DNA of 64,000 nucleotides from Candidatus Poribacteria bacterium (GCA_965222435.1 OZ244950.1:1707273-1771272); one strand, 5' to 3'. Counted from the first letter of the stretch, positions 4,414-38,756 are shown. Notes: generated from the sequence alone by a model not told the origin. Numbers and translations: made by a program.

Positions 4414-5979
4414 ATGAAGGGAAAGAAAAAATCGTTACGGTTGGGGCGTGTCTTGTGCACTCTCCTTATGGCGTCGTTGATTCTCCTACTCTGCGGAATA
4501 CCGGTGGCAAATGCACAAACGTCCCAGCAAATCGCCAAAAAAGCACTAGCAGCGACGGTGCTCTTAGTCATGGAAGACGCTAATAGCCGGCCGCTTTCAA
4601 TCGGTAGTGGATTCTTCGTGCAACCCAACCAGATTGTAACCAACTTTGACGTTATCGAAGGTGCCGTTAAGGGCTACGCAAAACGCGTGGGTGAAAAAAC
4701 GAAACGCGACATTGAAGGTGTCACCGGATTTGACGAGCAAGGGACTCTGGTTATACTAAAGGTGTCGGGCTCTGATGTTCAGCCGCTTCCCCTAGGCGAT
4801 AGTAACAAGGTTGGGATTGGTGAGACCGTTTATGTCGCGAGCAATCCAAAAGGAGATTTGGAAGGCACATTCTCGAAGGGCCTTATTAGTGGACTTCAAG
4901 GGGATTCAACCAACAAACAACTCCAGATGACGGTTCTGATTTATCCAGCGAGTAGTGGAGGTCCCGTGCTAAACGGAATGGGTGAAGTGATAGGTGTTTC
5001 GGTGGCAACCTTCCGCAGAGGGCAGAATCTTAGTTTTGCCATTCCTTCAAACGATCTCACAGCACTCGCCGCTACAGTTGGCCCCGCGATACCGTTGTCG
5101 AAATGGCAACAACTTATGTCTTCCGCTATAGGCAATTTGAAGGGGATTTTTAGCGATTATAAGGGTGCTATCGCTGACTTGGACACTGCTATCCGACTTG
5201 ACCCTGATAATTTCTTTGCTTACTTTAACCGGGGAGTTGCCAAGGGTGAGTTGGGTGATTATAAGGGTGCCATCGTTGATTTTGATACCGCTATCCGACT
5301 CAAACCCGATTATGCCGCTGCCTACTTTAATCGGGGAACTATCAAAGTAAAATTAGGACAACACTTCGCCGCTATCGCCGACTATGATACTGCTATCCGA
5401 CTTAAACCCGATTATGCCAAAGCCTACGATAGTCGGGGGACTGCCAAGGCAGCATTAGGACAACATTTCGCCGCTATCACCGACTATGATACTGCTATCC
5501 GACTCAAACCCGATGGTGTCATTGCCTACTTTAATCGGGGAACTACCAAGGCAGAATTAGGACAACACTTCGCCGCCATCGCCGACTATGATACTGCCAT
5601 CCGACTCAAATCCGATTATGCCGCTGCCTACGGTAATCGGGGGATTGTCAAGGCAGAATTAGGACAACACTTCGCCGCTATCACCGACTATGATATTGCC
5701 ATCCGGCTTAAACCTGATAATGTCATTAACTACCTTAATCGAGGAAATGCGAAGGCAGAATTAGGACAATATTCCGATGCTATCACTGACTACGATACCG
5801 TCATCCGACTCAAATCCGATTTTGCCAAAGCCTATTATAATCGGGGATTGGCAAAGTACGGCTTGAGTCGGTCCATGGAGGCAAAGCAAGATTTTCAAAC
5901 GGCATTGAAACATGCGGATCAGGCTGGCGATGCGCTTCTCAAAACCCAAATTGAGTCGGCGATTCGAGACCTCCACTAG
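4414..5979 (+). CDS. secreted trypsin-like serine protease with C-terminal TPR repeats
   Basis: N-terminal signal peptide; S1-like motifs (GSGFFV, PASSGGPVLN); about seven consecutive 34-aa TPR units (AIADYDTAIRLKPDYAAAYFNRG...). Confidence 0.65.
   Translation: MKGKKKSLRLGRVLCTLLMASLILLLCGIPVANAQTSQQIAKKALAATVLLVMEDANSRPLSIGSGFFVQPNQIVTNFDVIEGAVKGYAKRVGEKTKRDIEGVTGFDEQGTLVILKVSGSDVQPLPLGDSNKVGIGETVYVASNPKGDLEGTFSKGLISGLQGDSTNKQLQMTVLIYPASSGGPVLNGMGEVIGVSVATFRRGQNLSFAIPSNDLTALAATVGPAIPLSKWQQLMSSAIGNLKGIFSDYKGAIADLDTAIRLDPDNFFAYFNRGVAKGELGDYKGAIVDFDTAIRLKPDYAAAYFNRGTIKVKLGQHFAAIADYDTAIRLKPDYAKAYDSRGTAKAALGQHFAAITDYDTAIRLKPDGVIAYFNRGTTKAELGQHFAAIADYDTAIRLKSDYAAAYGNRGIVKAELGQHFAAITDYDIAIRLKPDNVINYLNRGNAKAELGQYSDAITDYDTVIRLKSDFAKAYYNRGLAKYGLSRSMEAKQDFQTALKHADQAGDALLKTQIESAIRDLH
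5150..5870 (+). repeat. tandem ~102-bp repeats encoding TPR units
   Basis: Near-identical 102-nt units visible at nucleotide level (gctatccgactcaaacccgat... recurring), in-frame within the protease gene. Confidence 0.6.
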
Positions 5980-6084
5980 CGAGGCAGTAATACCACACAA
6001 AAGGGGAACTTGGAATTCTTGACTTTGAGATAGTGGAATGATGTTGTCTAACAAGCCATTGGAAAGTGAAACAACGATGGAACA

Positions 6085-6963
6085 GTGTTTGATGAAGGGA
6101 GCGCGTTGATTGTGATTTTCTATAAATACGTTACCGCAGAACGAATTGATATTCTTCAAAATCGCCTAATCCGGTTCACGCAACCTGACGCGTTGAATGA
6201 TCCCTTTGAAGCTAAACCGCATTTCCACGCATTCGCAACAAAGGCGGGGCTTGCAAGTGCCTTTGCAGATATGATTAGGCAGGCTCCTACTGTTGTATGG
6301 GAAGACTTCCGGAGAGTAACACAAACCAACTTAGATCGACGAGCGTTCGCTGATAAACTTGAGGGAGATCCCGATTATGCTGATTGGCTATATAAGAATG
6401 TTGGTTTGCCGGACCCCCTTCCTAAGGAACGGAAAAAAGTGAGGAAATGGTTTAAGGTTGTAGGCATCCTATCCCTTTCCGAAACATGGGATAATCTGCT
6501 CATGTGGGCACACTATGCCGAAGAACACACCGGTTTTGTTCTTATGCTTGACGGTTCCCATGATTTCTTCAAAGGAGATAATTCTTTACTTGGGTTTGCA
6601 AAACCTGAACGTGTTGAATACAAATCGGAGCGTCCGAGTACAACAATTGAAGAGGTAACCGTGCCAGAGATCTTCCTGACTAAAGGTTTCGATTGGAAAT
6701 ATGAGAAAGAGTGGCGGTATTTGAAGTACCTCAACGGTGCGGACGAGCGACGCGAGGAACCCAATACTTATCCTGTGGAGCTCTTCAGGTTGCCCCTCAA
6801 GTGCATAAGGGGTGTAATCCTTGGGTGTCGCAGATCTAAAGAATTAGAAAATAACATCGTTGCCTTACGACGCGATGATCCGGAGTTTGGGCACTTGCAA
6901 ATCCTACAAGCACGTGCATCTACAAGGCGTTACCGGCTAGGGATAGAGGAAATAAAAACCTAA
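6085..6963 (+). CDS. DUF2971 family protein
   Basis: N-terminal FYKY...LNDPFE motif followed by LSLSETWDNLLMWAHYAEEHTGFVLMLD, characteristic of DUF2971. Confidence 0.5.
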   Translation: MFDEGSALIVIFYKYVTAERIDILQNRLIRFTQPDALNDPFEAKPHFHAFATKAGLASAFADMIRQAPTVVWEDFRRVTQTNLDRRAFADKLEGDPDYADWLYKNVGLPDPLPKERKKVRKWFKVVGILSLSETWDNLLMWAHYAEEHTGFVLMLDGSHDFFKGDNSLLGFAKPERVEYKSERPSTTIEEVTVPEIFLTKGFDWKYEKEWRYLKYLNGADERREEPNTYPVELFRLPLKCIRGVILGCRRSKELENNIVALRRDDPEFGHLQILQARASTRRYRLGIEEIKT

Positions 6964-7112: not shown

Positions 7113-8246
7113 ATGTTAAAAATTATTGACAACGGCATCATTTCCCACCAGAAAGAGCGGGGAGCGTACATGCCCGTGATCACCCCCCTCACAGACGGTA
7201 GTTTCATCGCCTGTCAGCATGTCGGGCAGGGGCTAGGCACACCGGACAATCATATCGAGATACTTCGTTCAATGGATGGGGGCGCAACATGGGTCAATGA
7301 AGGGAGCATCCATCCCGGCGGCACGCCTATTGCTTTGAATCCCGATGAAATCGGGGCGGACGGATGGTCTTATCGGGGTCCAAAGATTAGCGAGGTTCCA
7401 GACGGTCGCTTGGTGATGAACGCTACCCGTTTCGAGAACGAGGGCGGCACGCTCTTTGACACGGAATCGGAAGCCTTGCAGCGTCCGGAGATTCTGCTGT
7501 TCTGGTCAGAAGATCAAGGCAAAACGTGGTCAGAACCGCAGGTCGTGCCGGTAGACCTACCGCCCGAAAAATACACATGGAACGGGGCTGGACCTCTCTT
7601 GCAACTCGTGCCGGATCGGTGGATGTACCCCCTCGAAACGTGGAAGCCCGAAGGCTATGAAGGTCCTCCCGATCAGAAGGCAGCGGCTGTATTCTCCGCA
7701 GATCAGGGAGAAACGTGGGGAGAGTTCACCGTCGTCGCAGATGACCTCACAGGCGCGTTGCTCTGGTGGGATCAGATGTGCGCCTTGTTACCGGATGGAC
7801 GCATCTATACCCTAATCTGGACGCACCAGTACGGAACCTCCGAGGACTTGACGAACCACTGGGTGATCTCTGAAGACGGTGGACGTACTTGGTCCGAACC
7901 CCGACCGACAAATCTGCGCGGTCAGGTCTGCACCCCCATCCCGCTGCCCGACGGTCGCGTGGCGGCAATCTACAATTTCCGACACGAACCCCAAGGCATC
8001 CATGTGGCACTGACCGAAGACCTTGAGAATTTCGACGTAGAGAACGAGGTCGTGGTCTTTGATGCAGGAAAAGAGGCAACCCTCGGCGAACCTGAGAACG
8101 AGAACTTCCTCGCTGAACACATGCAGATCGCTTTTGGCAAGCCCGGTGGGACAACCCTGCCGGACGGGGATGTGATGACCTATTTCTGGTGTACTGTGGC
8201 GGGAGTCACCCATACGCGCTGGGTGAAATTGCGATTGGAAGGCTAA
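7113..8246 (+). CDS. BNR/Asp-box repeat protein (sialidase-like glycosidase)
   Basis: Four Asp-box motifs S/D-x-D-x-G-x-T-W (MDGGATW, DQGKTWSEP, DQGETWGEF, DGGRTWSEP). Confidence 0.65.
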   Translation: MLKIIDNGIISHQKERGAYMPVITPLTDGSFIACQHVGQGLGTPDNHIEILRSMDGGATWVNEGSIHPGGTPIALNPDEIGADGWSYRGPKISEVPDGRLVMNATRFENEGGTLFDTESEALQRPEILLFWSEDQGKTWSEPQVVPVDLPPEKYTWNGAGPLLQLVPDRWMYPLETWKPEGYEGPPDQKAAAVFSADQGETWGEFTVVADDLTGALLWWDQMCALLPDGRIYTLIWTHQYGTSEDLTNHWVISEDGGRTWSEPRPTNLRGQVCTPIPLPDGRVAAIYNFRHEPQGIHVALTEDLENFDVENEVVVFDAGKEATLGEPENENFLAEHMQIAFGKPGGTTLPDGDVMTYFWCTVAGVTHTRWVKLRLEG

Positions 8247-9199: not shown

Positions 9200-9343
9200 A
9201 TTTTCGCAGATTGCTTTGAACCCCGATCTCATCGGGGAAAAACAGAAAGGCTCATATAAAAAGAAAGTGCAAAATGCGAAGCGAAATTGTAGGGGCGGGG
9301 TCTCCCCGCCCGTAGTACGGGTTGGGGGACCCAACCCCTACAA
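9200..9343. repeat. composite intergenic repeat block (hairpin repeat + GTAG-flanked palindromes, REP/BIME-like)
   Basis: ttgctttgaaccccgatctcatcgggg at 9200..9226; gtagg-ggcgggg...ccccgcc-cgtag followed by gggttggg-gga-cccaaccc-ctac; homologous copies elsewhere in window. Confidence 0.5.
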
Positions 9344-11089: not shown

Positions 11090-12166
11090 ATGACGGATAG
11101 ATCTCATCCGCTGCGCGTCGGCGTTGTTGGTTGTGGTGGTTTTGGACGCAATGCCTATGTGAACAATGTCGTTGAAAACCCTGACGCCAGCTTGGTCGCA
11201 CTCTGCGACGTCGATCTGGCACAGGCGGAAGCCGCCGCACGTGAAGTCTTTGATGAGGGTGGCAGAGAACCGCGTCCGGCACTTTACGCAGACTATCAAG
11301 CGATGATCGACCAAGAATCTCTTGATGTCGTCATGGTTGGAACGATGGCAGGTGTCCGTCCGCGTGTGGCAATCTATGCGTTGAATGCCGGTGCGCACGT
11401 CCTCGCTGCCAAGCCGATGGCACCGTCCTTGGCAGAGGCGGAGGAGATGCTCCAGAAGGCAAAGGAAGCGGACAGGATTCTGATGGTCGGCTATAACTTC
11501 CGATTCCGCGATGATGCACAGGTCGTGCACCGCTTTATCCGTGACGGTGGCATCGGGACACCCCGCTTTGCCCGTGCTTGGTCATTTGCCCCTAGCGTAC
11601 CAATCCGCGGATCCCACTACAAAGCAAGGTCAGGGGGCGGCTCACTCGCCAGAACTGGGGTTCACGCGATGGACTTGGCAATCTGGTTCCTTGGCAATCC
11701 ACCGCTCATCTCCGTGCATGGCCGGGCGGTCTCACGCTTTGCCACCCTTCCTGCACTGCCCTCCGAATTGGAACCCCTCCGAGGTGACTACGACGATCCA
11801 GATCTGGTCAGCGGCTATGTCCACTTCGCCGATGGCGTCACGCTGTCCGTCGAGAGTATGTGGATGGCACCGCCGCAGATCGGCGATAACGGTGTCGAGG
11901 TGTGGGGAACGCAAGGCTACGTTTCGGTGACACCGTTACAATTGCTGACTTGGCAGGATGGCGATTACGCCGATGTGACCGAGCAGGTTGCTCCGGGCGT
12001 TGCCAATTCCTTCCATGACCACTCGAGCAACCGGCTATGCCGCGAGGTCTTTCATTTCATCGACTGCGTTCTCGGCAGAGCGACACCGCTTATAACGCCG
12101 CAAGAGATGTGGACGGATCAGGCAATCGTCGATGGAATCTACGCCGGCACGAAAGTAGTGAAATAA
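11090..12166 (+). CDS. Gfo/Idh/MocA family oxidoreductase
   Basis: N-terminal Rossmann motif LRVGVVGCGGFGRNAYV and family-typical length (358 aa). Confidence 0.75.
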   Translation: MTDRSHPLRVGVVGCGGFGRNAYVNNVVENPDASLVALCDVDLAQAEAAAREVFDEGGREPRPALYADYQAMIDQESLDVVMVGTMAGVRPRVAIYALNAGAHVLAAKPMAPSLAEAEEMLQKAKEADRILMVGYNFRFRDDAQVVHRFIRDGGIGTPRFARAWSFAPSVPIRGSHYKARSGGGSLARTGVHAMDLAIWFLGNPPLISVHGRAVSRFATLPALPSELEPLRGDYDDPDLVSGYVHFADGVTLSVESMWMAPPQIGDNGVEVWGTQGYVSVTPLQLLTWQDGDYADVTEQVAPGVANSFHDHSSNRLCREVFHFIDCVLGRATPLITPQEMWTDQAIVDGIYAGTKVVK

Positions 12167-14346: not shown

Positions 14347-14362
14347 AGTTTAGGGGCTTCCG

Positions 14363-23373: not shown

Positions 23374-24366
23374 ATGAAAGAATCTGATCTGACGGCGTTG
23401 AACGAAAAGATTCAGGAGGCAAGTGCCTTCGTTGAAGAAATCTTTGAAGAGATTCGGAAGGTTATCATCGGGCAGAAGTATATGATTGAGCGGATGATTA
23501 TCGGATTGCTCTGCAACGGTCATGTCCTGTTAGAGGGCGTTCCCGGTCTCGCCAAGACAACCGCTGTCCAAGCACTTTCCGGCACAATTGCCGTCTCTTT
23601 CAAACGCCTGCAATTTACCCCTGACCTTCTGCCTGCCGATCTAATCGGCACCCAGATTTATAACCAACGTTCGGGCGATTTTTATGTTAAAAAGGGTCCT
23701 ATTTTCGCGAACCTTGTTCTCGCCGACGAGATTAACCGTGCACCCGCCAAAGTTCAAAGCGCGCTCCTTGAAGCAATGCAAGAACGTCAGGTCACAATCG
23801 GTGATGAAACCTATCCCCTTGACCCACCATTCCTCGTCCTAGCAACCCAAAACCCAATCGAGCAAGAGGGAACTTACCCCCTGCCAGAAGCACAAGTAGA
23901 CCGGTTCATGCTCAAATTGCATGTAACCTATCCCTCGCGGACAGAAGAACTTTCGATTTTACGGCAACTCACACGCGAAGAACCTCAACCGATTCAACAG
24001 GTCATATCCCCTCAAGAAATTCTCCAACTCCGCACAACAGTCCGTGAAATCTACATGGACGAGAAGATCGAAAACTATATTGTCGATCTCGTCTACGCCA
24101 CACGTGAGCCAGCGAAGTACCAATTAGACCAACTTACAGACCTCATCGAATACGGCGCATCGCCGCGGGCGACGATCTTTCTCGCCATGGCTGCCAAAGC
24201 CCACGCCTTCCTCCGCCATCGCGGGTATGTCACGCCAGAAGATGTCTACGCAGTCGGTATGGATGTCCTCAGACACCGCGTTATCGTCAGCTACGAAGCG
24301 GAGGCGGAAGAGATCTCTTCCGAACAGATTATCAAACAGGTTTTTGAAGGGGTCGAAGTGCCTTAG
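23374..24366 (+). CDS. MoxR-family AAA+ ATPase
   Basis: Walker A GVPGLAKTT, Walker B LADEINRA, typical MoxR length. Confidence 0.8.
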   Translation: MKESDLTALNEKIQEASAFVEEIFEEIRKVIIGQKYMIERMIIGLLCNGHVLLEGVPGLAKTTAVQALSGTIAVSFKRLQFTPDLLPADLIGTQIYNQRSGDFYVKKGPIFANLVLADEINRAPAKVQSALLEAMQERQVTIGDETYPLDPPFLVLATQNPIEQEGTYPLPEAQVDRFMLKLHVTYPSRTEELSILRQLTREEPQPIQQVISPQEILQLRTTVREIYMDEKIENYIVDLVYATREPAKYQLDQLTDLIEYGASPRATIFLAMAAKAHAFLRHRGYVTPEDVYAVGMDVLRHRVIVSYEAEAEEISSEQIIKQVFEGVEVP

Positions 24367-24755
24367 CAGGAGGAGGACTAATACTTTAACGTGAGCTGCT
24401 AGACTCTATTGACATTTAACAGGAGTGTAAGTCGAAGATTCTCGGAACGGGGTTGAGTTGAACGGGAATCTGAAACCCAACACCATAACCGTAGGTCGAG
24501 CAGCTTGTCCGACTTAAAACCCCAGTTGCTTTGAATCCCGATCTTATTGGGGCGGGGCAGCAAGTGTATAGAAAATCAGACGCTGCATACCTAAAACTTC
24601 AGTTGGTTTGAAACTCGATCGCAGCATCGGGCCGAGGCAACATGTGTTTAGTCATTTCTAGCAGTTGTTGAGCATGGAAACTCAACCTCAGCAGGTCGTG
24701 GTGGAAATCATTTGACATGATGGCTCGACTTGGATTGACAAATCCACAGAGGAGG

Positions 24756-25087
24756 TTAATTATCTTCAGGACAATTATATACCCAGTAGTACAAAAAGGC
24801 GTCAGCGCCAATATCAGCCATCCAACCGTCAGTAAAACCACGTTGGTACTCAAGGGGTTCAGCCTGAATTTTCTTCTGCTCCTTGTCAGGCAGCTTTGAT
24901 GGCATGTAATAACTGTAACCAATCATCCCAGCAAAAATCCCTTGAGTAGAATTGGATGAAGCCCGTAGGCCATCTTTATATCCCAACTTGTAGTTTTCTT
25001 CGCGCCTTTAGGATACAATATTGCCGTGCATCCTGATAGGAACACAACGGTTAAAAGACAAAAGAGTACAACCCAATTTCTTTGCAT
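24756..25087 (-). pseudogene. small lipoprotein gene with apparent frameshift
   Basis: ATG at 25087 encodes lipoprotein signal MQRNWVVLFCLLTVVFLSGC (lipobox LSGC) in one frame; the listed 76-aa ORF 24756..24986 continues in a different frame. Confidence 0.25.
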
Positions 25088-25202
25088 TGTTGACCCCCTT
25101 TAATCTTGTGCACCACCTAGCTAATTTGCATGGTAAATCTATTTTAACCCCCGCCACCAAAACCGTGCCAAGTGGGTTTCACATCTTCGAGGTCATCTGA
25201 TA

Positions 25203-27143
25203 CTATTTTAGAATGACCATCTTGCGCATTGCATAAAAATGGTCTGCTTGTAACTGGTAAAAATAAACGCCACTTGCGACTGATTCCCCGCTTTCGTTGT
25301 GCCCATCCCAATACGCTGCGCTTGTCCTATCTGTGTAGTAGCCCGGCTGCTGATACCCAAAATCTAACTGACGCACCACTACGCCTTGAGGGTCGTAAAT
25401 GGTCAGCGTCACATCGGCAGCGTGGGCAAGGTGATAGGGAATCCATGTCTCTGGGTTGAATGGATTGGGATAGTTTGCAAGCAGTACAGTTTTGTGGGGT
25501 ATAAAGGGCAGAGAAACGTCCTGTAAGGCAGCGCGCAGTTGGTTGAGATTGGCAATACCTTGCCGGAAAGCGAACGAACCATCATCTGCGGCGTGCGCCA
25601 TATCAATCCACTTTTGAATCGTTGCGGGGTCAATCCCGAACGTTTGCCATGCAAGCCCGCCGGGAGCCAAGGGGGTCGTTGCGCCCCCCAAGTGTTGAGC
25701 AACGGTGATGAGGTCAAAAATATTAACTATTCCATCGTTGTTGACATCCGCTTGGGGGTGGGCTTGACCAAAGTTTTGGCCCACCAGAACCAGATCCAAG
25801 ATATTTACCAGCCCATCCCCATTGAGATCATAATCCGATTCAACGACAATCTCAAGGGCGTGAATCCCGATATCAATCTCCTGATCGAAAAGTGTACGGA
25901 AGTCGACGTTGTGGAGGCTTAACTCCCCTTTTCCAGCCGCCCTTGCTTGAAAGGTTACTGACAGCAGTACATCACTGATCTGGAAGCAGTCCGCACCCAA
26001 CTCCATATTAACGCCGGTGATTCTGCCTGCCGCGTTGTCAATAATGCCCTCTTGAAAGACAGATTGGCTGCATCCATTATCGAGAGAAATATAGGTGCCT
26101 TCATCGACTTGAAGCGCGACAAGTACGCCGGGTGTGAACGCAATATCAAGTTCCCAACCCTCTAAAAGCAGAAAACCATCCAGATGGAGATTGAGTTTAA
26201 ATATCTCCCCAACACGAACTTGATCGATCAAGGGAAAGAAAAGGTGTGTACTTCCCACCCGAACCCCTCGATCCGAAAGGGCTGGAATATGTGTGTTGAT
26301 GGAGATGTCGCTTAGCGGGTTATCATCTACAACAACCTTATCTCCACGATCAAGCCCCATGTTTGCTACCAAGGGTGACAGATCCGATATTCCGTTGTTT
26401 TCAAGCCATAGCTCTTTCAGATTGGTCAAGCCCACCAAAGTCGATATATCCGCGAGACCATTGTGATTAAGATTCAAATCTGTCAAGTTCGTTAAAGCTG
26501 CTAAAGGCGATATATCTGTGATCGCATTATAGCCAAGATATAGGTCTTTCAGATTGGTCAAGTCCGCTAAAGGTGATATATCCGTGATGGCGTTGAAGCC
26601 GAGACTCAGATTTGTCAGGTTTGTCAAGCCTGCCAATACCGATATGTCAGTGAGCGCATTGTCAATAAGATATAAGTATGTTAGGTTTGTCAAGCCCATC
26701 AACGCTGATATGTCTGCGATAGGGTTGGAGCCAAGCCATAGGTCTGTTAGATTGGTCAAGCCCGCCAAAGGCGATATATCTGTAATGGTGTTGGAACCAA
26801 GATGTAGATCTGTCAGGCTCGTTAAGGTTGCCAAAGGCGCGATGTCCGATATCGCATTATCAGAAAGAAACAGCGTGTCTAGGTTGGTTGCGGACTCAAG
26901 TCCGGTCAAATTGCGGATTTGAGAGTTAAACCCGAAGATATAGGTCAAACTCTCCATCTCCGCCACAGTAATTGTAGCACCGGATGCCTTGCCAAGTTCT
27001 TCCTCCACCAAAGCGCGGAGGTTGGGGTCGGGTATATCAACGATTTGGGCAGATACCAAGTCCACTCCTATTATTGTAACGGAACAGACTATTGATATTG
27101 CTATTATAATGATTCTCATTTGAAATTTTCTGATCCTATTCAC
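25203..27143 (-). CDS. secreted leucine-rich-repeat protein with dockerin-like repeats and T9SS-type C-terminal sorting domain
   Basis: Signal peptide; at least 8 LRR units of 22 aa (LxxLTNLTxLxLxxNxIxDISPLA); two dockerin-like DxNxDGxVN repeats; C-terminal YPNPFNPET...GVYFYQL...KMVILK tail. Confidence 0.65.
   Translation of the reverse strand: MNRIRKFQMRIIIIAISIVCSVTIIGVDLVSAQIVDIPDPNLRALVEEELGKASGATITVAEMESLTYIFGFNSQIRNLTGLESATNLDTLFLSDNAISDIAPLATLTSLTDLHLGSNTITDISPLAGLTNLTDLWLGSNPIADISALMGLTNLTYLYLIDNALTDISVLAGLTNLTNLSLGFNAITDISPLADLTNLKDLYLGYNAITDISPLAALTNLTDLNLNHNGLADISTLVGLTNLKELWLENNGISDLSPLVANMGLDRGDKVVVDDNPLSDISINTHIPALSDRGVRVGSTHLFFPLIDQVRVGEIFKLNLHLDGFLLLEGWELDIAFTPGVLVALQVDEGTYISLDNGCSQSVFQEGIIDNAAGRITGVNMELGADCFQISDVLLSVTFQARAAGKGELSLHNVDFRTLFDQEIDIGIHALEIVVESDYDLNGDGLVNILDLVLVGQNFGQAHPQADVNNDGIVNIFDLITVAQHLGGATTPLAPGGLAWQTFGIDPATIQKWIDMAHAADDGSFAFRQGIANLNQLRAALQDVSLPFIPHKTVLLANYPNPFNPETWIPYHLAHAADVTLTIYDPQGVVVRQLDFGYQQPGYYTDRTSAAYWDGHNESGESVASGVYFYQLQADHFYAMRKMVILK
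26380..26900 (-). repeat. tandem 66-bp LRR-coding repeats
   Basis: Repeated units visible at nucleotide level within the LRR gene. Confidence 0.5.
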
Positions 27144-27484
27144 TTTTGTCCCCCTTCATTTTTCATCAACTATAATGATGCAACATTTGTCAAGCCTATC
27201 ACAAGAAAAACGTGGTATTCCACAGGGTATGTTGACATTTTACTGTCGCTAATTCGGGAGATGCTAGAATCATCCCTCTATCTGTCAAAAACCGAGGCGG
27301 TTATCCGAAATTACCTCAAGTTGCTTTAAATCCCGATCTTATCGGGGGTGTATTAGGTCAAAGACTCTCGGAACGGAGATTGATTCAATCTGTCAAATGT
27401 CAATAGAACTGAGTAAAAAAATGAAATCACAGATACCACCAATCTGCCATCTTAATTAGTAAGCCAACCGATACAAGCAAAAAC

Positions 27485-35751: not shown

Positions 35752-36029
35752 CCCCTACCCCATTTGCAAAATTAGTAGGTCGTGATTTTATTTTTTTATA
35801 GGACTTACACAGTTGAACACTGAGGTTTTGTAGTTCGATGCTTCAGTGCCAACGCGGGGCAAGTCCGAGAGGATTTCCGAAGAATCGAGAGCAGGCCCGT
35901 GACCGGGGAGGCCCCGCCTACGATGGGTATGGATTCTGACCATACCCCGAAACGCCCGATGAATCGGGCAACTACAAGCCGATGAATCGGGGAACTACGA
36001 TATGAGGTGCGTAAGTCCTGTTTTATTTA

Positions 36030-37893: not shown

Positions 37894-38472
37894 TCAAGTT
37901 AAATCTTCCCGCCTCTGATACAAAAGGTCCATAATCTCCTGTAACAGGGGAGAATCGTCAAAACTTCGATAATTCCAAGGATTTGTCCAAAATTCGTCCA
38001 GCGATCGATAGCCAATCTTTTCGTATTCCAAGACCTGAATCATCAGTTCAAGTTTATCGGCAGCCCGTACCAATTTCCCTTCAACAGATGTACCTTCCTC
38101 AAACTCAGCCCAAAGTTGGATATATTTTTGTTGGAGTGGTCCAAAGCGTTCAAACATTGATTCAACAGCAGCCTGTTCCCCCGCTGCCTTGACTTCTTCG
38201 GGGATATATTTGAGGGTTGGAAAGGGCAGATCTCCAATCCGTGCTTCAGCGACCTCGTGCAACAATGCGAGGCGCATCACTTTTTCCACGTCCAGCGGAA
38301 CGCCCTGCTCCGTCAACACATCCGCCAGAATCATCGACAAAAGTGACACTCGATAGCAATGATCTGCGATACTCTCAGCATCTTTGATACCGCGAAAACG
38401 CCAGCCGGTGCGCGGCAGGTTCTTGAGAACGCCAATTTCTTCAATGAAATCTAATACAGCTTGTGCATTCAT
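37894..38472 (-). CDS. HD-domain phosphohydrolase (YfbR-like)
   Basis: HD motif region (DHCYRVSLL...HEVAEARIGD); first gene of the HD-pyrR-pyrC cluster. Confidence 0.6.
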   Translation of the reverse strand: MNAQAVLDFIEEIGVLKNLPRTGWRFRGIKDAESIADHCYRVSLLSMILADVLTEQGVPLDVEKVMRLALLHEVAEARIGDLPFPTLKYIPEEVKAAGEQAAVESMFERFGPLQQKYIQLWAEFEEGTSVEGKLVRAADKLELMIQVLEYEKIGYRSLDEFWTNPWNYRSFDDSPLLQEIMDLLYQRREDLT

Positions 38473-38492
38473 CAGTCACCAAATCAGGGCAT

Positions 38493-38524
38493 AAAAAAAG
38501 CCTCCCCTACAGAAAGAGGGAGGC
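38493..38524 (-). terminator. intrinsic-terminator-like hairpin plus U7 in the leader of the HD-pyrR-pyrC cluster
   Basis: Minus-strand gcctccc-loop-gggaggc followed by ttttttt, about 20 nt upstream of the HD-gene ATG. Confidence 0.4.
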
Positions 38525-38756
38525 ACTTAACCATTCAATAGTTTTTGAGATATGGGAGTAACCGTAAATCATGTGTGATACCCTTTCCTAACCTCGCGGG
38601 ATCAGATTAAAAGGGAAAATTCTTCCATGTACGCCGCTGCCATTAAAACCGTTTTAAGTGTAGCACAATTGATCTATTTTTGCAAGAGAAATGTTGACCA
38701 TTGACATCGTGCGAAAATTCTGCTAAACTTAATCCCATCATTAAAATCAGGACTTA

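What the first reader, a model, noticed from the sequence alone, without database searches (positions are those of the whole stretch)
24431..24640. Dispersed composite hairpin repeat (ttgctttgaa-YCCGAT-loop-ATCGGGG plus ctctcggaacgg module) in at least five copies
The 27-nt unit ttgctttgaatcccgat-NNN-atcgggg (6-bp stem, variable 3-nt loop) occurs at 7321, 9200, 24526, 27321 and, reverse-complemented, 46721. A second module, ctctcggaacggRG, lies within about 100 nt of three copies (24439, 27365, 46776) in varying order and orientation. A third shared segment (aaaggctcatRtMaaaagaaagtgcaaa) links 9247 and 46631. The shuffled modules resemble mosaic intergenic repeat elements.
Basis: seen in the sequence. 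Interest (0 to 1): 0.45.

Follow-up and report, generated by a model that had tools for sequence, protein, structure and literature searches.

The report
27-base mobile hairpin micro-element, Poribacteria
The repeat is a sharply bounded 27-base hairpin element that has inserted into intergenic DNA, other repeats and even genes (adding nine amino acids) in sponge-symbiont Poribacteria, which puts it among the smallest mobile DNA elements seen.

Summary
TTGCTTTGAAYCCCGAT-NNN-ATYGGGG occurs five times in the window, plus one degenerate copy. Modules 2 and 3 are also real.

The 27-mer is not one module of a composite element. It is an independent unit of exactly 27 nt, with a 10-nt tail, a 6-7 bp stem and a free 3-nt loop. 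A capped scan of 185,579 species genomes returned 105 blocks. All named records were Candidatus Poribacteria MAGs.

Three orthologous filled/empty comparisons show clean 27-nt indels without target duplication. One is in the window's sialidase-family gene, which gains IALNPDEIG.

Insertion follows C-[A/C]-N-[A/G] in 81% of sites, against 6% background. 38% of sites lie in loops of other hairpin repeats, against 18% in controls. About a quarter of copies are genic, and 22 of 27 of those read VALNPDxIG.

Shorter sibling elements nest inside the 27-mer. This parallels the small dispersed repeats (SDRs) of Nostoc.

Best explanation: a non-autonomous micro-transposon, probably moved in trans as single-stranded DNA by an HUH-type enzyme. 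Mobility is shown; the enzyme is inferred. No cognate transposase was found.

The finding region itself is a mosaic of at least five small repeat families.

The parts
7330..7356 (+). 27-mer copy (loop GAA) inserted in frame in a sialidase/BNR_2-family gene (ORF 7113-8246), adding IALNPDEIG
   Evidence: The 9 residues are absent from all 9 aligned homologues, including the 94%-identical P0001. The orthologous DNA L106 lacks exactly these 27 nt: CCCA^CGGACGG, no target duplication.
9211..9237 (+). 27-mer copy (C at position 11 gives a 7-bp stem; loop CTC) in the intergenic region between two PhyH genes, directly 5' of module 3
   Evidence: It lies within about 105 nt that the ortholog L106 lacks; this comparison is not clean.
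24526..24552 (+). 27-mer copy (loop CTT, stem C>T giving a G.T pair) nested in the loop of host hairpin repeat unit 1
   Evidence: Many uninterrupted copies of the host repeat GCCCCAG^CGGGGCGACATGTnTATAG exist in other loci.
24603..24631 (+). Degenerate 29-nt relative (TTGGTTTGAAACTCGAT-CGCAGC-ATCGGG, 6-nt loop) nested at the same position of host repeat unit 2
   Evidence: It folds weakly, z = 0.5.
27321..27347 (+). 27-mer copy (loop CTT), followed after 7 nt by module 2; antisense to the flanking minus-strand genes
   Evidence: The same composite arrangement occurs in L075.
46722..46747 (-). 26-nt subfamily variant (CCCGA-TTTA-TCGGG) between an ankyrin-repeat gene and a class II dehydroquinase gene
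   Evidence: It sits at TTTATCAGG^GGTTACTCTCCCCC. Paralogous copies of that host repeat in L015, L055 and L092 are uninterrupted at this point.
24520..24571 (+). Host hairpin repeat unit 1 (CCCCAG^CGGGGCAGCAAGTGTATAG) interrupted by the 27-mer
   Evidence: The family shows stem covariation across loci: GCCCC/GGGGC, GCTCC/GGAGC, GCACC/GGTGC.
24597..24651 (+). Host hairpin repeat unit 2 (CTTCAG^CCGAGGCAACATGTGTTTAG) interrupted by the degenerate copy
24429..24453 (+). Module 2, a separate small hairpin repeat; family consensus (G)TAGGTCGAAGA-CTCTC-GGAACG-GAGAG
   Evidence: (D16).
27355..27379 (+). Module 2 copy
46766..46790 (+). Module 2 copy
9246..9273 (+). Module 3 (AAAGGCTCATATAAAAAGAAAGTGCAAA), a separate repeat family
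   Evidence: (D18). Also seen in L012 and L044.
46630..46657 (+). Module 3 copy
24491..24513 (+). GTAG-tagged REP-like hairpin GTAGGTCGAGCAGCTTGTCCGAC, another member of the mosaic
   Evidence: The same family (GTAGGTCGGGCATCTTGCCCGAC) occurs in L003 and L024.
24450..24481 (+). GGGTTGAGTTGAACGGGAATCTGAAACCCAAC hairpin repeat, another member of the mosaic
   Evidence: The family GTAGGTTGGGTTGAAC..GTGAAACCCAAC occurs in L024, L040 and L061.
14352..14355 (.). Empty site: the orthologous position in Poribacteria MAG PCPOR2b (L049) carries a 27-mer
   Evidence: Flanks are 88% identical and the gap is exactly 27 nt. L106 is also empty at this site.
35948..35999 (-). Two tandem GTAG-tagged REPs (minus strand reads GTAGTTGCCCGATTCATCGGGCG) that share TTGC and the CCCGAT..ATCGGG hairpin with the 27-mer; a further copy is at 2129-2157
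   Evidence: (D15).

Best explanation
The unit is a non-autonomous mobile micro-element of exactly 27 nt: a 10-nt tail TTGCTTTGAA, then the hairpin (T/C)CCCGAT-NNN-ATCGGGG. It is specific to Candidatus Poribacteria.

Shown here:
- It is present or absent as a precise 27-nt block at orthologous sites, with no target-site duplication.
- It lands immediately 3' of C-[A/C]-N-[A/G], most often CAAG, CCAG or CAGG.
- It often lands in the loop of another hairpin repeat.
- It can sit inside genes, because 27 nt equals 9 codons.
- Genic survivors are almost all in the one frame that reads (V/I)ALNPDxIG.
- Shorter sibling elements with the same 3' hairpin insert into it by the same target rule.

Inferred:
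- It moves as single-stranded DNA.
- It is cut and joined in trans by an HUH-type endonuclease/transposase (IS200/IS605 TnpA, RAYT or IS91-like). That enzyme would read the conserved tail and stem, ignore the loop, and select the tetranucleotide next to one end.
- It may derive from the GTAG-tagged REPs of the same genomes (GTAG-TTGC-CCGAT..ATCGG), whose 5' tag and hairpin it mimics (CAAG-TTGC...CCCGAT..ATCGGG).
- Composite mosaics such as the finding region arise from repeated nested insertion into repeat-rich intergenic DNA.
For: Boundaries. Information content is 2 bits across the unit and drops to background immediately after G27. On the left only positions -4 to -1 retain a preference. 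L103 has two head-to-tail copies with a 27-nt period.

Mobility.
- Window 7330 is filled and L106 is empty. All protein homologues lack the 9 residues.
- L049 is filled; the window and L106 are empty.
- L102 and L045 are filled and L015 is empty, in a dockerin-like ORF.
- The syntenic 21-kb L106, at 87-90% identity, has no copy where the window has two.
- No comparison shows a target duplication.

Target. C[AC]N[AG] precedes 81% of 107 distinct sites against 6% background. CARG precedes 33% against 0.8%. The motif is already present in most of the empty sites (CCCA, CACG, CCAG; the window's own empty site reads TAGG), so it belongs to the target and not to the element. The preference persists in 21 sites with unrelated flanks.

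Hairpin-loop targeting. 38% of sites have flanks forming at least 5 bp, against 18% for shuffled flank pairs.

Nesting. A roughly 20-nt element CCTGTCCCGATnnATCGGGG sits after CCCG^ inside the 27-mer (L094, L023, L064) and inside GTAG REPs (L017). A roughly 24-nt element TTTCTTAATCCCGATTTATCGGGG sits inside a REP hairpin (L012, L044).

Orientation. There is no bias in co-directional intergenic regions (28 sense, 22 antisense). Inside genes the split is 22 sense to 5 antisense, and 22 of 27 genic copies are in one frame. Target phase predicts only about 69:31 between the two viable sense frames. This pattern fits orientation-free DNA insertion followed by purifying selection on the encoded peptide.

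Lineage. All named records among the 105 genome blocks returned were Poribacteria MAGs. There were none in viral contigs.

HUH analogy. IS91-family elements make no target duplication, have subterminal palindromes, and need a tetranucleotide (5'-CTTG, the complement of CAAG) next to one end (bioRxiv 10.1101/2025.01.24.634351). REPs are linked to IS200/IS605-like RAYTs, and REPs occur inside genes in several species (PMC3733652).
Against: No enzyme has been tied to the element.
- The only Y1 transposase in about 910 kb of held poribacterial DNA (L073) belongs to an IS605 lineage. Its ends, read from relatives, carry CCCAAT..ATTGGG hairpins and a TTGAA target, not the CCCGAT hairpin.
- 188 kb around 73 more distant relatives contains no CCGAT..ATCGG hairpin.
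- No RAYT was found with a YafM sequence recalled from memory. This is a weak test.

The element has one hairpin, whereas IS200/IS605 ends have two distinct ones. At 27 nt it is far below any element shown experimentally to be moved by an HUH enzyme.

A strand bias along the chromosome, expected for lagging-strand targeting, is not established. One chromosome shows a clean 6+/5- split (p about 0.03), but the pooled test gives p about 0.1.

Confidence: 0.6

Rival explanations
1. The element moves through an RNA intermediate. It is transcribed, then reverse-transcribed or reverse-spliced into new sites. As I recall the abstract, this is what was proposed for the Nostoc small dispersed repeats.
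For: The closest analogues (SDRs) were suggested to work through RNA intermediates (Elhai et al. 2008; from memory, paper not held). The hairpin is also stable as RNA. Stem changes to G.T(U) slightly outnumber A.C changes, 9 to 5.
Against: In co-directional intergenic regions the copies show no preference for the transcribed sense (28 to 22). The sense bias appears only inside genes, where peptide selection explains it. The 9:5 G.T/A.C asymmetry is not significant. No reverse transcriptase recurs among the ORF families near copies.
Confidence: 0.12
2. The 27-mer is a host-selected functional motif, such as a protein-binding site or RNA structure comparable to the roles proposed for REPs. Its dispersal reflects selection rather than selfish transposition.
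For: The tail and stem are invariant while the loop varies freely. Copies are roughly 15-fold enriched in intergenic DNA: 27% genic against 84-86% coding sequence. Some orthologous copies are retained between genomes whose flanks are 77-93% identical; this observation is ascertainment-biased.
Against: Copies are present or absent between close relatives at otherwise conserved sites. They occur in both orientations relative to transcription, inside coding sequences and inside other repeats. There is no terminator-like T-run and no Rfam family match. A function would in any case not explain how an identical 27-nt block gets inserted.
Confidence: 0.1
3. One reading: the 27-mer, module 2 and module 3 are modules of one composite mosaic element that moves as a block.
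For: All three module-2 copies in the window lie within 100 nt of a 27-mer. A composite of 27-mer + module 2 + CTGTCAAATGTCAA recurs in L075. A roughly 200-nt composite of REP + module 2 + host repeat + 27-mer recurs at least 4 times in OZ252032.1 (L017, L020, L061, L065).
Against: Most copies have unrelated flanks right up to the 27-nt boundary. Indels at orthologous sites are exactly 27 nt. Genic copies carry no other module. The order and orientation of the modules vary.
Confidence: 0.05
4. The repeat is fundamentally a protein-coding module, the peptide VALNPDxIG, spread because of a protein-level function.
For: 22 of 27 genic copies use this one frame. Differences among window copies fall at third codon positions in that frame.
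Against: About three quarters of copies are intergenic, in either orientation and nested in non-coding repeats. The host proteins are unrelated (sialidase-like, dockerin-like, LRR, secretin and others), and the peptide sits in variable linkers or just after signal peptides.
Confidence: 0.02

Closest known systems
Small dispersed repeats (SDR1-8) of Nostoc punctiforme and relatives (Elhai et al. 2008, Genome Res 18:1484)
   Same: Size class (21-27 nt). Hairpin-forming. Dispersed. Inserted inside other repeats and inside copies of themselves or siblings. Restricted to one lineage. Present or absent at otherwise conserved sites. No encoded protein. Details of the SDR paper are from memory because it is not held. 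PMC5861425 confirms that SDR5 inserts in HIP1 and that SDRs are confined to Nostocaceae.
   Different: The Poribacteria element shows a defined tetranucleotide target (C[AC]NR^) and a substantial set of in-frame genic insertions. I do not recall either feature being reported for SDRs.
REP / REPIN elements mobilised by RAYTs (PMC3116915; PMC3733652)
   Same: Short (20-40 nt) hairpin repeats, mostly extragenic and occasionally inside genes. A tetranucleotide lies next to the hairpin. They are thought to be moved as ssDNA by an HUH Y1 enzyme. The same genomes hold GTAG REPs that share TTGC and the CCCGAT hairpin with the 27-mer.
   Different: The element has no GTAG or CGTC tag. The adjacent tetranucleotide belongs to the target. 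Copies are overwhelmingly single rather than inverted pairs. No RAYT gene flanked by the element was found.
IS200/IS605 and IS91 families and their non-autonomous derivatives
   Same: Insertion without target duplication, next to a specific tetra- or pentanucleotide. Hairpins at the ends are the recognition signal. The IS91 target CTTG is the complement of the commonest flank, CAAG.
   Different: A single hairpin and 27 nt in total. The one IS200/IS605 TnpA lineage examined uses different hairpins and a different target.
Rickettsia palindromic elements (RPEs)
   Same: Palindromic selfish repeats found inserted in frame within functional genes, as cited in PMC3733652.
   Different: RPEs are about 100-150 nt and CGTC-tagged. 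Here the insert is 9 codons.

Membership tests
Nostoc-type small dispersed repeats (SDR) | Dispersed repeat of about 21-27 nt with a predicted hairpin | tested here: met
   27 nt with sharp boundaries. Hairpin of -2.1 to -7.3 kcal/mol.
Nostoc-type small dispersed repeats (SDR) | Nested insertion within other repeats and within copies of itself or siblings | tested here: met
   Nested in three host hairpin families. Sibling elements sit inside the 27-mer (L094, L023, L064, L071).
Nostoc-type small dispersed repeats (SDR) | Sequence homology to SDR1-8 and occurrence in Nostocaceae | tested here: not met
   All named records among the 105 genome blocks returned were Candidatus Poribacteria. It is therefore not a member; the resemblance is one of kind. 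The SDR sequences themselves could not be retrieved.
REP / REPIN (RAYT-associated) | GTAG (or CGTC) tetranucleotide tag at one end of the palindrome | tested here: not met
   The unit starts TTGC and ends GGGG. The adjacent C[AC]NR is target-derived.
REP / REPIN (RAYT-associated) | Copies predominantly arranged as inverted pairs (REPINs) | tested here: not met
   By fuzzy matching (up to 4 errors), 85 of 106 sources hold a single copy. By exact pattern, only 8 of 113 matches share a locus with another: one tandem pair (L103) and one inverted pair (L084).
REP / REPIN (RAYT-associated) | A RAYT gene flanked by the repeat | tested here: inconclusive
   No RAYT was found in about 910 kb of held DNA using a recalled YafM query. 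Whole genomes could not be searched.
IS200/IS605-derived non-autonomous element | No target duplication; insertion 3' of a specific tetra- or pentanucleotide | tested here: met
IS200/IS605-derived non-autonomous element | Distinct left-end and right-end subterminal hairpins matching those of a resident TnpA-encoding IS | tested here: not met
   The element has a single hairpin. The only resident TnpA lineage examined has CCCAAT..ATTGGG and CCCAAGCAT..ATGCTTGGG ends.
IS200/IS605-derived non-autonomous element | Strand bias relative to replication (lagging-strand template) | tested here: inconclusive
   OZ244587.1 shows a 6+/5- split (p about 0.03). Pooled over 8 chromosomes, p is about 0.1. The origin and terminus are unknown.
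Intrinsic terminator / known RNA family | G+C-rich stem followed by a T-run, or a match to an Rfam model | tested here: not met
   No terminator-like site in 24300-25250. No Rfam match at gathering or E<=1 apart from noise.
   The region is a mosaic and some composites recur. The 27-mer nevertheless behaves as an independent unit.

The most novel reading that the evidence does not exclude
A whole guild of 20-27-nt hairpin cassettes in Poribacteria (the 27-mer and its roughly 24-nt and 20-nt siblings) is written into DNA by a mechanism that is not any characterised transposase family. One possibility is a host or orphan enzyme that opens hairpin loops at C[AC]NR and ligates in a tiny ssDNA or RNA-templated cassette. 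These would then be the smallest mobile genetic units known. They would also be a systematic source of 9-residue (VALNPDxIG) insertions in symbiont proteins, including secreted eukaryote-like repeat proteins.
Probability: 0.2. Interest if true: 0.85.

Novelty: new variant of a known kind. Interest (0 to 1): 0.6.

Why it matters
Mobile elements this small have, to my knowledge, been argued for only in Nostocaceae, and their mechanism has stayed open since 2008.

The Poribacteria element offers a second, independent case with clearer handles:
- exact 27-nt boundaries
- clean filled and empty orthologous sites
- a defined target tetranucleotide
- self-nesting sibling elements
- in-frame insertions in real genes

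Many complete long-read Poribacteria chromosomes now exist. A whole-genome census, strand-bias test and enzyme-correlation search are therefore directly doable, so the question of what moves 20-30-nt elements becomes testable.

The element also matters for annotation. It creates 9-residue indels in proteins and short repeats that can confuse MAG assembly and orthology calls in an uncultivated sponge-symbiont phylum.

Tried and rejected
1. Link to the L073 IS200/IS605 TnpA. A CCCGAT hairpin and a module-2-like hairpin lie just after its stop codon. Relatives show that the true IS ends are CCCAAT-type hairpins with a TTGAA target, and that L073 has lost tnpB and the right end. Rejected.
2. 73 metagenome relatives of that TnpA: no CCGAT..ATCGG hairpin or module 2 in 188 kb.
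3. RAYT search with a recalled YafM sequence: no hit. This is a weak test.
4. Recurrent ORF families near copies: only ordinary metabolic and repeat proteins, no transposase.
5. Loop versus target covariation, testing for a guide-like pairing: none, p = 0.83.
6. Element strand versus local GC skew: none. Versus chromosome halves: pooled p about 0.1.
7. G.T versus A.C asymmetry in stem substitutions among non-seed copies: 9 to 5, not significant.
8. Rfam at gathering and E-value thresholds, tRNA scan, and terminator and promoter scans: nothing relevant.
9. Viral contigs: no copy.
10. Exact-protein look-ups for three window genes, to find same-species strains: none on record.
11. Orthologues of the MoxR gene next to the finding. 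The DNA downstream is a variable island with no alignable intergenic sequence, so no filled/empty test was possible for 24526 or 27321.
12. The Elhai 2008 paper could not be read.
13. Literature searches for Poribacteria combined with MITE, hairpin or repeat terms found no prior description.

Full report
**The observation**

The window holds TTGCTTTGAA(T/C)CCCGAT-NNN-ATCGGGG at 7330, 9211, 24526 and 27321 on the + strand. A 26-nt variant lies at 46722-46747 on the - strand. A degenerate relative with a 6-nt loop lies at 24603. That is 6 matches to the 17-nt left part, against 0.26 expected by chance.

Module 2 (three + strand copies; 0.05 expected) and module 3 (two copies; 0 expected) are also real. 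Each unit folds into the predicted 6-7 bp stem with a 3-nt loop.

**Origin**

Every named record was a Candidatus Poribacteria MAG, many with several hits per chromosome. Viral contigs gave none. The window itself is poribacterial:
- 8 kb is syntenic with MAG PCPOR2b at about 88% identity.
- 18 kb is syntenic with a metagenome scaffold at 87-90% identity.

**Anatomy**

I aligned 112 distinct copies. Conservation is complete over the unit except for the three loop bases, where CTT accounts for 38% and over 20 other triplets occur. It drops to background directly after the last G. To the left, only four positions keep a preference: C, A/C, N, G/A. L103 carries two head-to-tail copies with a period of exactly 27 nt. 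The unit is therefore 27 nt: a 10-nt tail plus a hairpin.

**Mobility**

Three orthologous comparisons show a clean 27-nt difference with no target duplication.

1. The window's sialidase/BNR_2 gene (7113-8246) has IALNPDEIG where nine homologues, including one 94% identical, have nothing. The orthologous DNA reads CCCA^CGGACGG.
2. PCPOR2b carries a copy where the window (about 14352) and the metagenome scaffold are empty.
3. Two MAGs carry VALNPD(L/R)IG in a dockerin-like protein where a third has CCAG^CG.

The 21-kb syntenic scaffold has no copy at all, while the window has two in the same stretch.

The tetranucleotide preference is a target preference, because the motif is already present in most of the empty sites (the window's own empty site, TAGG, departs from it). 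It precedes 81% of 107 distinct sites against 6% background. It persists among sites with unrelated flanks.

**Where it lands**

In 38% of sites the flanks form a stem of at least 5 bp, against 18% for shuffled flank pairs. These copies sit in loops of other hairpin repeats, mainly three families:
- GC(G/C)CTCCAG^(A/C)GGAGCGC..TATAG
- GGCATA^CTCCGTATGCC
- GGCAGGCACAAG^ACCTGCC

The window's 24526 and 24603 copies are of the first kind. The 46747 copy sits at TTTATCAGG^GGTTACTC, a site that is uninterrupted in paralogous repeats elsewhere.

About 27% of copies are genic, although about 84-86% of the DNA is coding. Of 27 genic copies, 22 use the one frame reading (V/I)ALNPDxIG, with the loop forming the variable codon. 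Target phase alone would give roughly 69:31 between the two stop-free sense frames.

Orientation is unbiased in co-directional intergenic regions (28:22) but 22:5 inside genes. This fits orientation-free insertion followed by selection on the encoded peptide. It argues against insertion into transcripts.

**Relatives**

The same genomes carry shorter elements with the same 3' hairpin:
- TTTCTTAATCCCGATTTATCGGGG, about 24 nt
- CCTGTCCCGATnnATCGGGG, about 20 nt

These are found inside the 27-mer and inside GTAG-tagged REPs, inserted after CCCG^. That follows the same target rule. The GTAG REP family GTAGTTGCCCGATTCATCGGGCG (window 2129, 35948, 35971) shares TTGC and the CCCGAT hairpin with the 27-mer. 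The left junction of an inserted 27-mer (CAAG-TTGC) therefore resembles the REP tag region (GTAG-TTGC).

**The finding region**

Positions 24405-24651 form a mosaic:
- a TTGACATTTAACAG motif
- module 2
- a GGGTTG..CCCAAC hairpin
- a GTAG-tagged hairpin
- two units of the CCCCAG^CGGGGC..TATAG repeat, each with a nested 27-mer-type insert

It lies in a variable island between a MoxR ATPase gene and a 262-residue ORF. Related genomes fill this island with TnpB, RHS or a DDE transposase instead. Some composites recur, such as 27-mer + module 2 in L075 and a roughly 200-nt composite in OZ252032.1.

**Mechanism**

The following features are shown: precise insertion without duplication, next to a tetranucleotide; a recognition hairpin with a free loop; and a preference for extruded loops. 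Among known systems these features are typical of HUH enzymes acting on single-stranded DNA. Examples are IS200/IS605, RAYT/REP and IS91; the IS91 target CTTG is the complement of CAAG.

That an HUH enzyme moves this element is inference. The one Y1 transposase in the held DNA (L073) looked promising because a CCCGAT hairpin follows its stop codon. Its relatives show different end hairpins and a TTGAA target, so I reject that link. No RAYT was found. The replication-strand bias test is inconclusive.

**Comparison and novelty**

The closest known phenomenon is the Nostoc small dispersed repeats: 21-27 nt, hairpin-forming, self-nesting and lineage-restricted. Their mechanism is unknown, and they were reported only in Nostocaceae (details from memory).

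The poribacterial element is not a member of that family, nor of GTAG/CGTC REPs. It works like them and adds a clear target rule and in-frame genic insertions, as seen for the much larger Rickettsia palindromic elements. I found no prior description for Poribacteria.

I rate it a new variant of a known kind, of moderate-to-high interest.

Noticed in passing
window 42180-43100 (+): One reading frame encodes two tandem BCP/AhpC-type peroxiredoxin domains. Each has an in-frame TGA exactly where the peroxidatic cysteine sits (FYPKDFTGG*TTELRSL; FYPKDFTDG*TAEVCSL). Each TGA is followed by a similar CTC(A/G)CTCCGGGATGAG segment. These are probably selenocysteine peroxiredoxins with a SECIS-like element (D10, 99, 100).
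   Followed up: partly
window 38491-38618 (-): Rfam PyrR binding site match, just at threshold (54.5 bits against gathering score 54). It lies upstream of minus-strand ORF 37894-38472.
   Followed up: no
window 9289-9341; L106 about 12030-12085: A GTAG-tagged inverted REP pair (REPIN): GTAGGGGCGGGGTCTCCCCGCCC ... GGGTTGGGGGACCCAACCCCTAC. In the ortholog L106 the two arms are exchanged, as if the whole doublet had been flipped.
   Followed up: no
window 44061-45239 and 45337-46536: A tandem duplication of about 1.3 kb carrying ankyrin-repeat genes, 81-96% identical in segments. A third copy of the 28-nt junction motif is at 46579 (D2-D7 and D13, 83).
   Followed up: no
window 24367-27484; L189-L193: The DNA between the MoxR ATPase gene and the 262-residue ORF next to carB is a variable island. 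It holds an LRR/dockerin/FlgD_ig gene here, TnpB plus a small ORF in L189 and L190, LRR plus RHS in L191, and a DDE transposase in L192 and L193.
   Followed up: partly
L094 1369-1400; L071 (minus-strand offsets about 6018-6172): Multi-level nesting: a roughly 20-nt CCTGTCCCGAT..ATCGGGG element inside a 27-mer inside a host hairpin repeat. In L071 there are several such elements nested within each other.
   Followed up: partly
L186 about 2088; L187 about 3122; L188 about 1658: IS605-type elements related to the L073 TnpA carry a TCCCGAT-AGA-ATCGGGA stem-loop at the 3' end of tnpB, just before the right-end hairpin. Sister copies (L180-L185) have a different stem at this position. The core hairpin is the same as in the 27-mer; significance unknown.
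   Followed up: no
L001 (+ strand ORF, from about nt 5803): A 27-mer inserted right after a predicted signal-peptide cleavage site of an LRR protein (..TNAFAQ-VALNPDPIG-VVDIPDPNL..). This shows that secreted eukaryote-like repeat proteins are among the hosts.
   Followed up: no
window 5167-5949 and 26393-26767: In-gene tandem repeats: a 102-nt (34-residue) periodic repeat, consistent with TPR-type repeats (not annotated here), in ORF 4414-5979, and 66-nt leucine-rich repeats in ORF 25203-27143.
   Followed up: no
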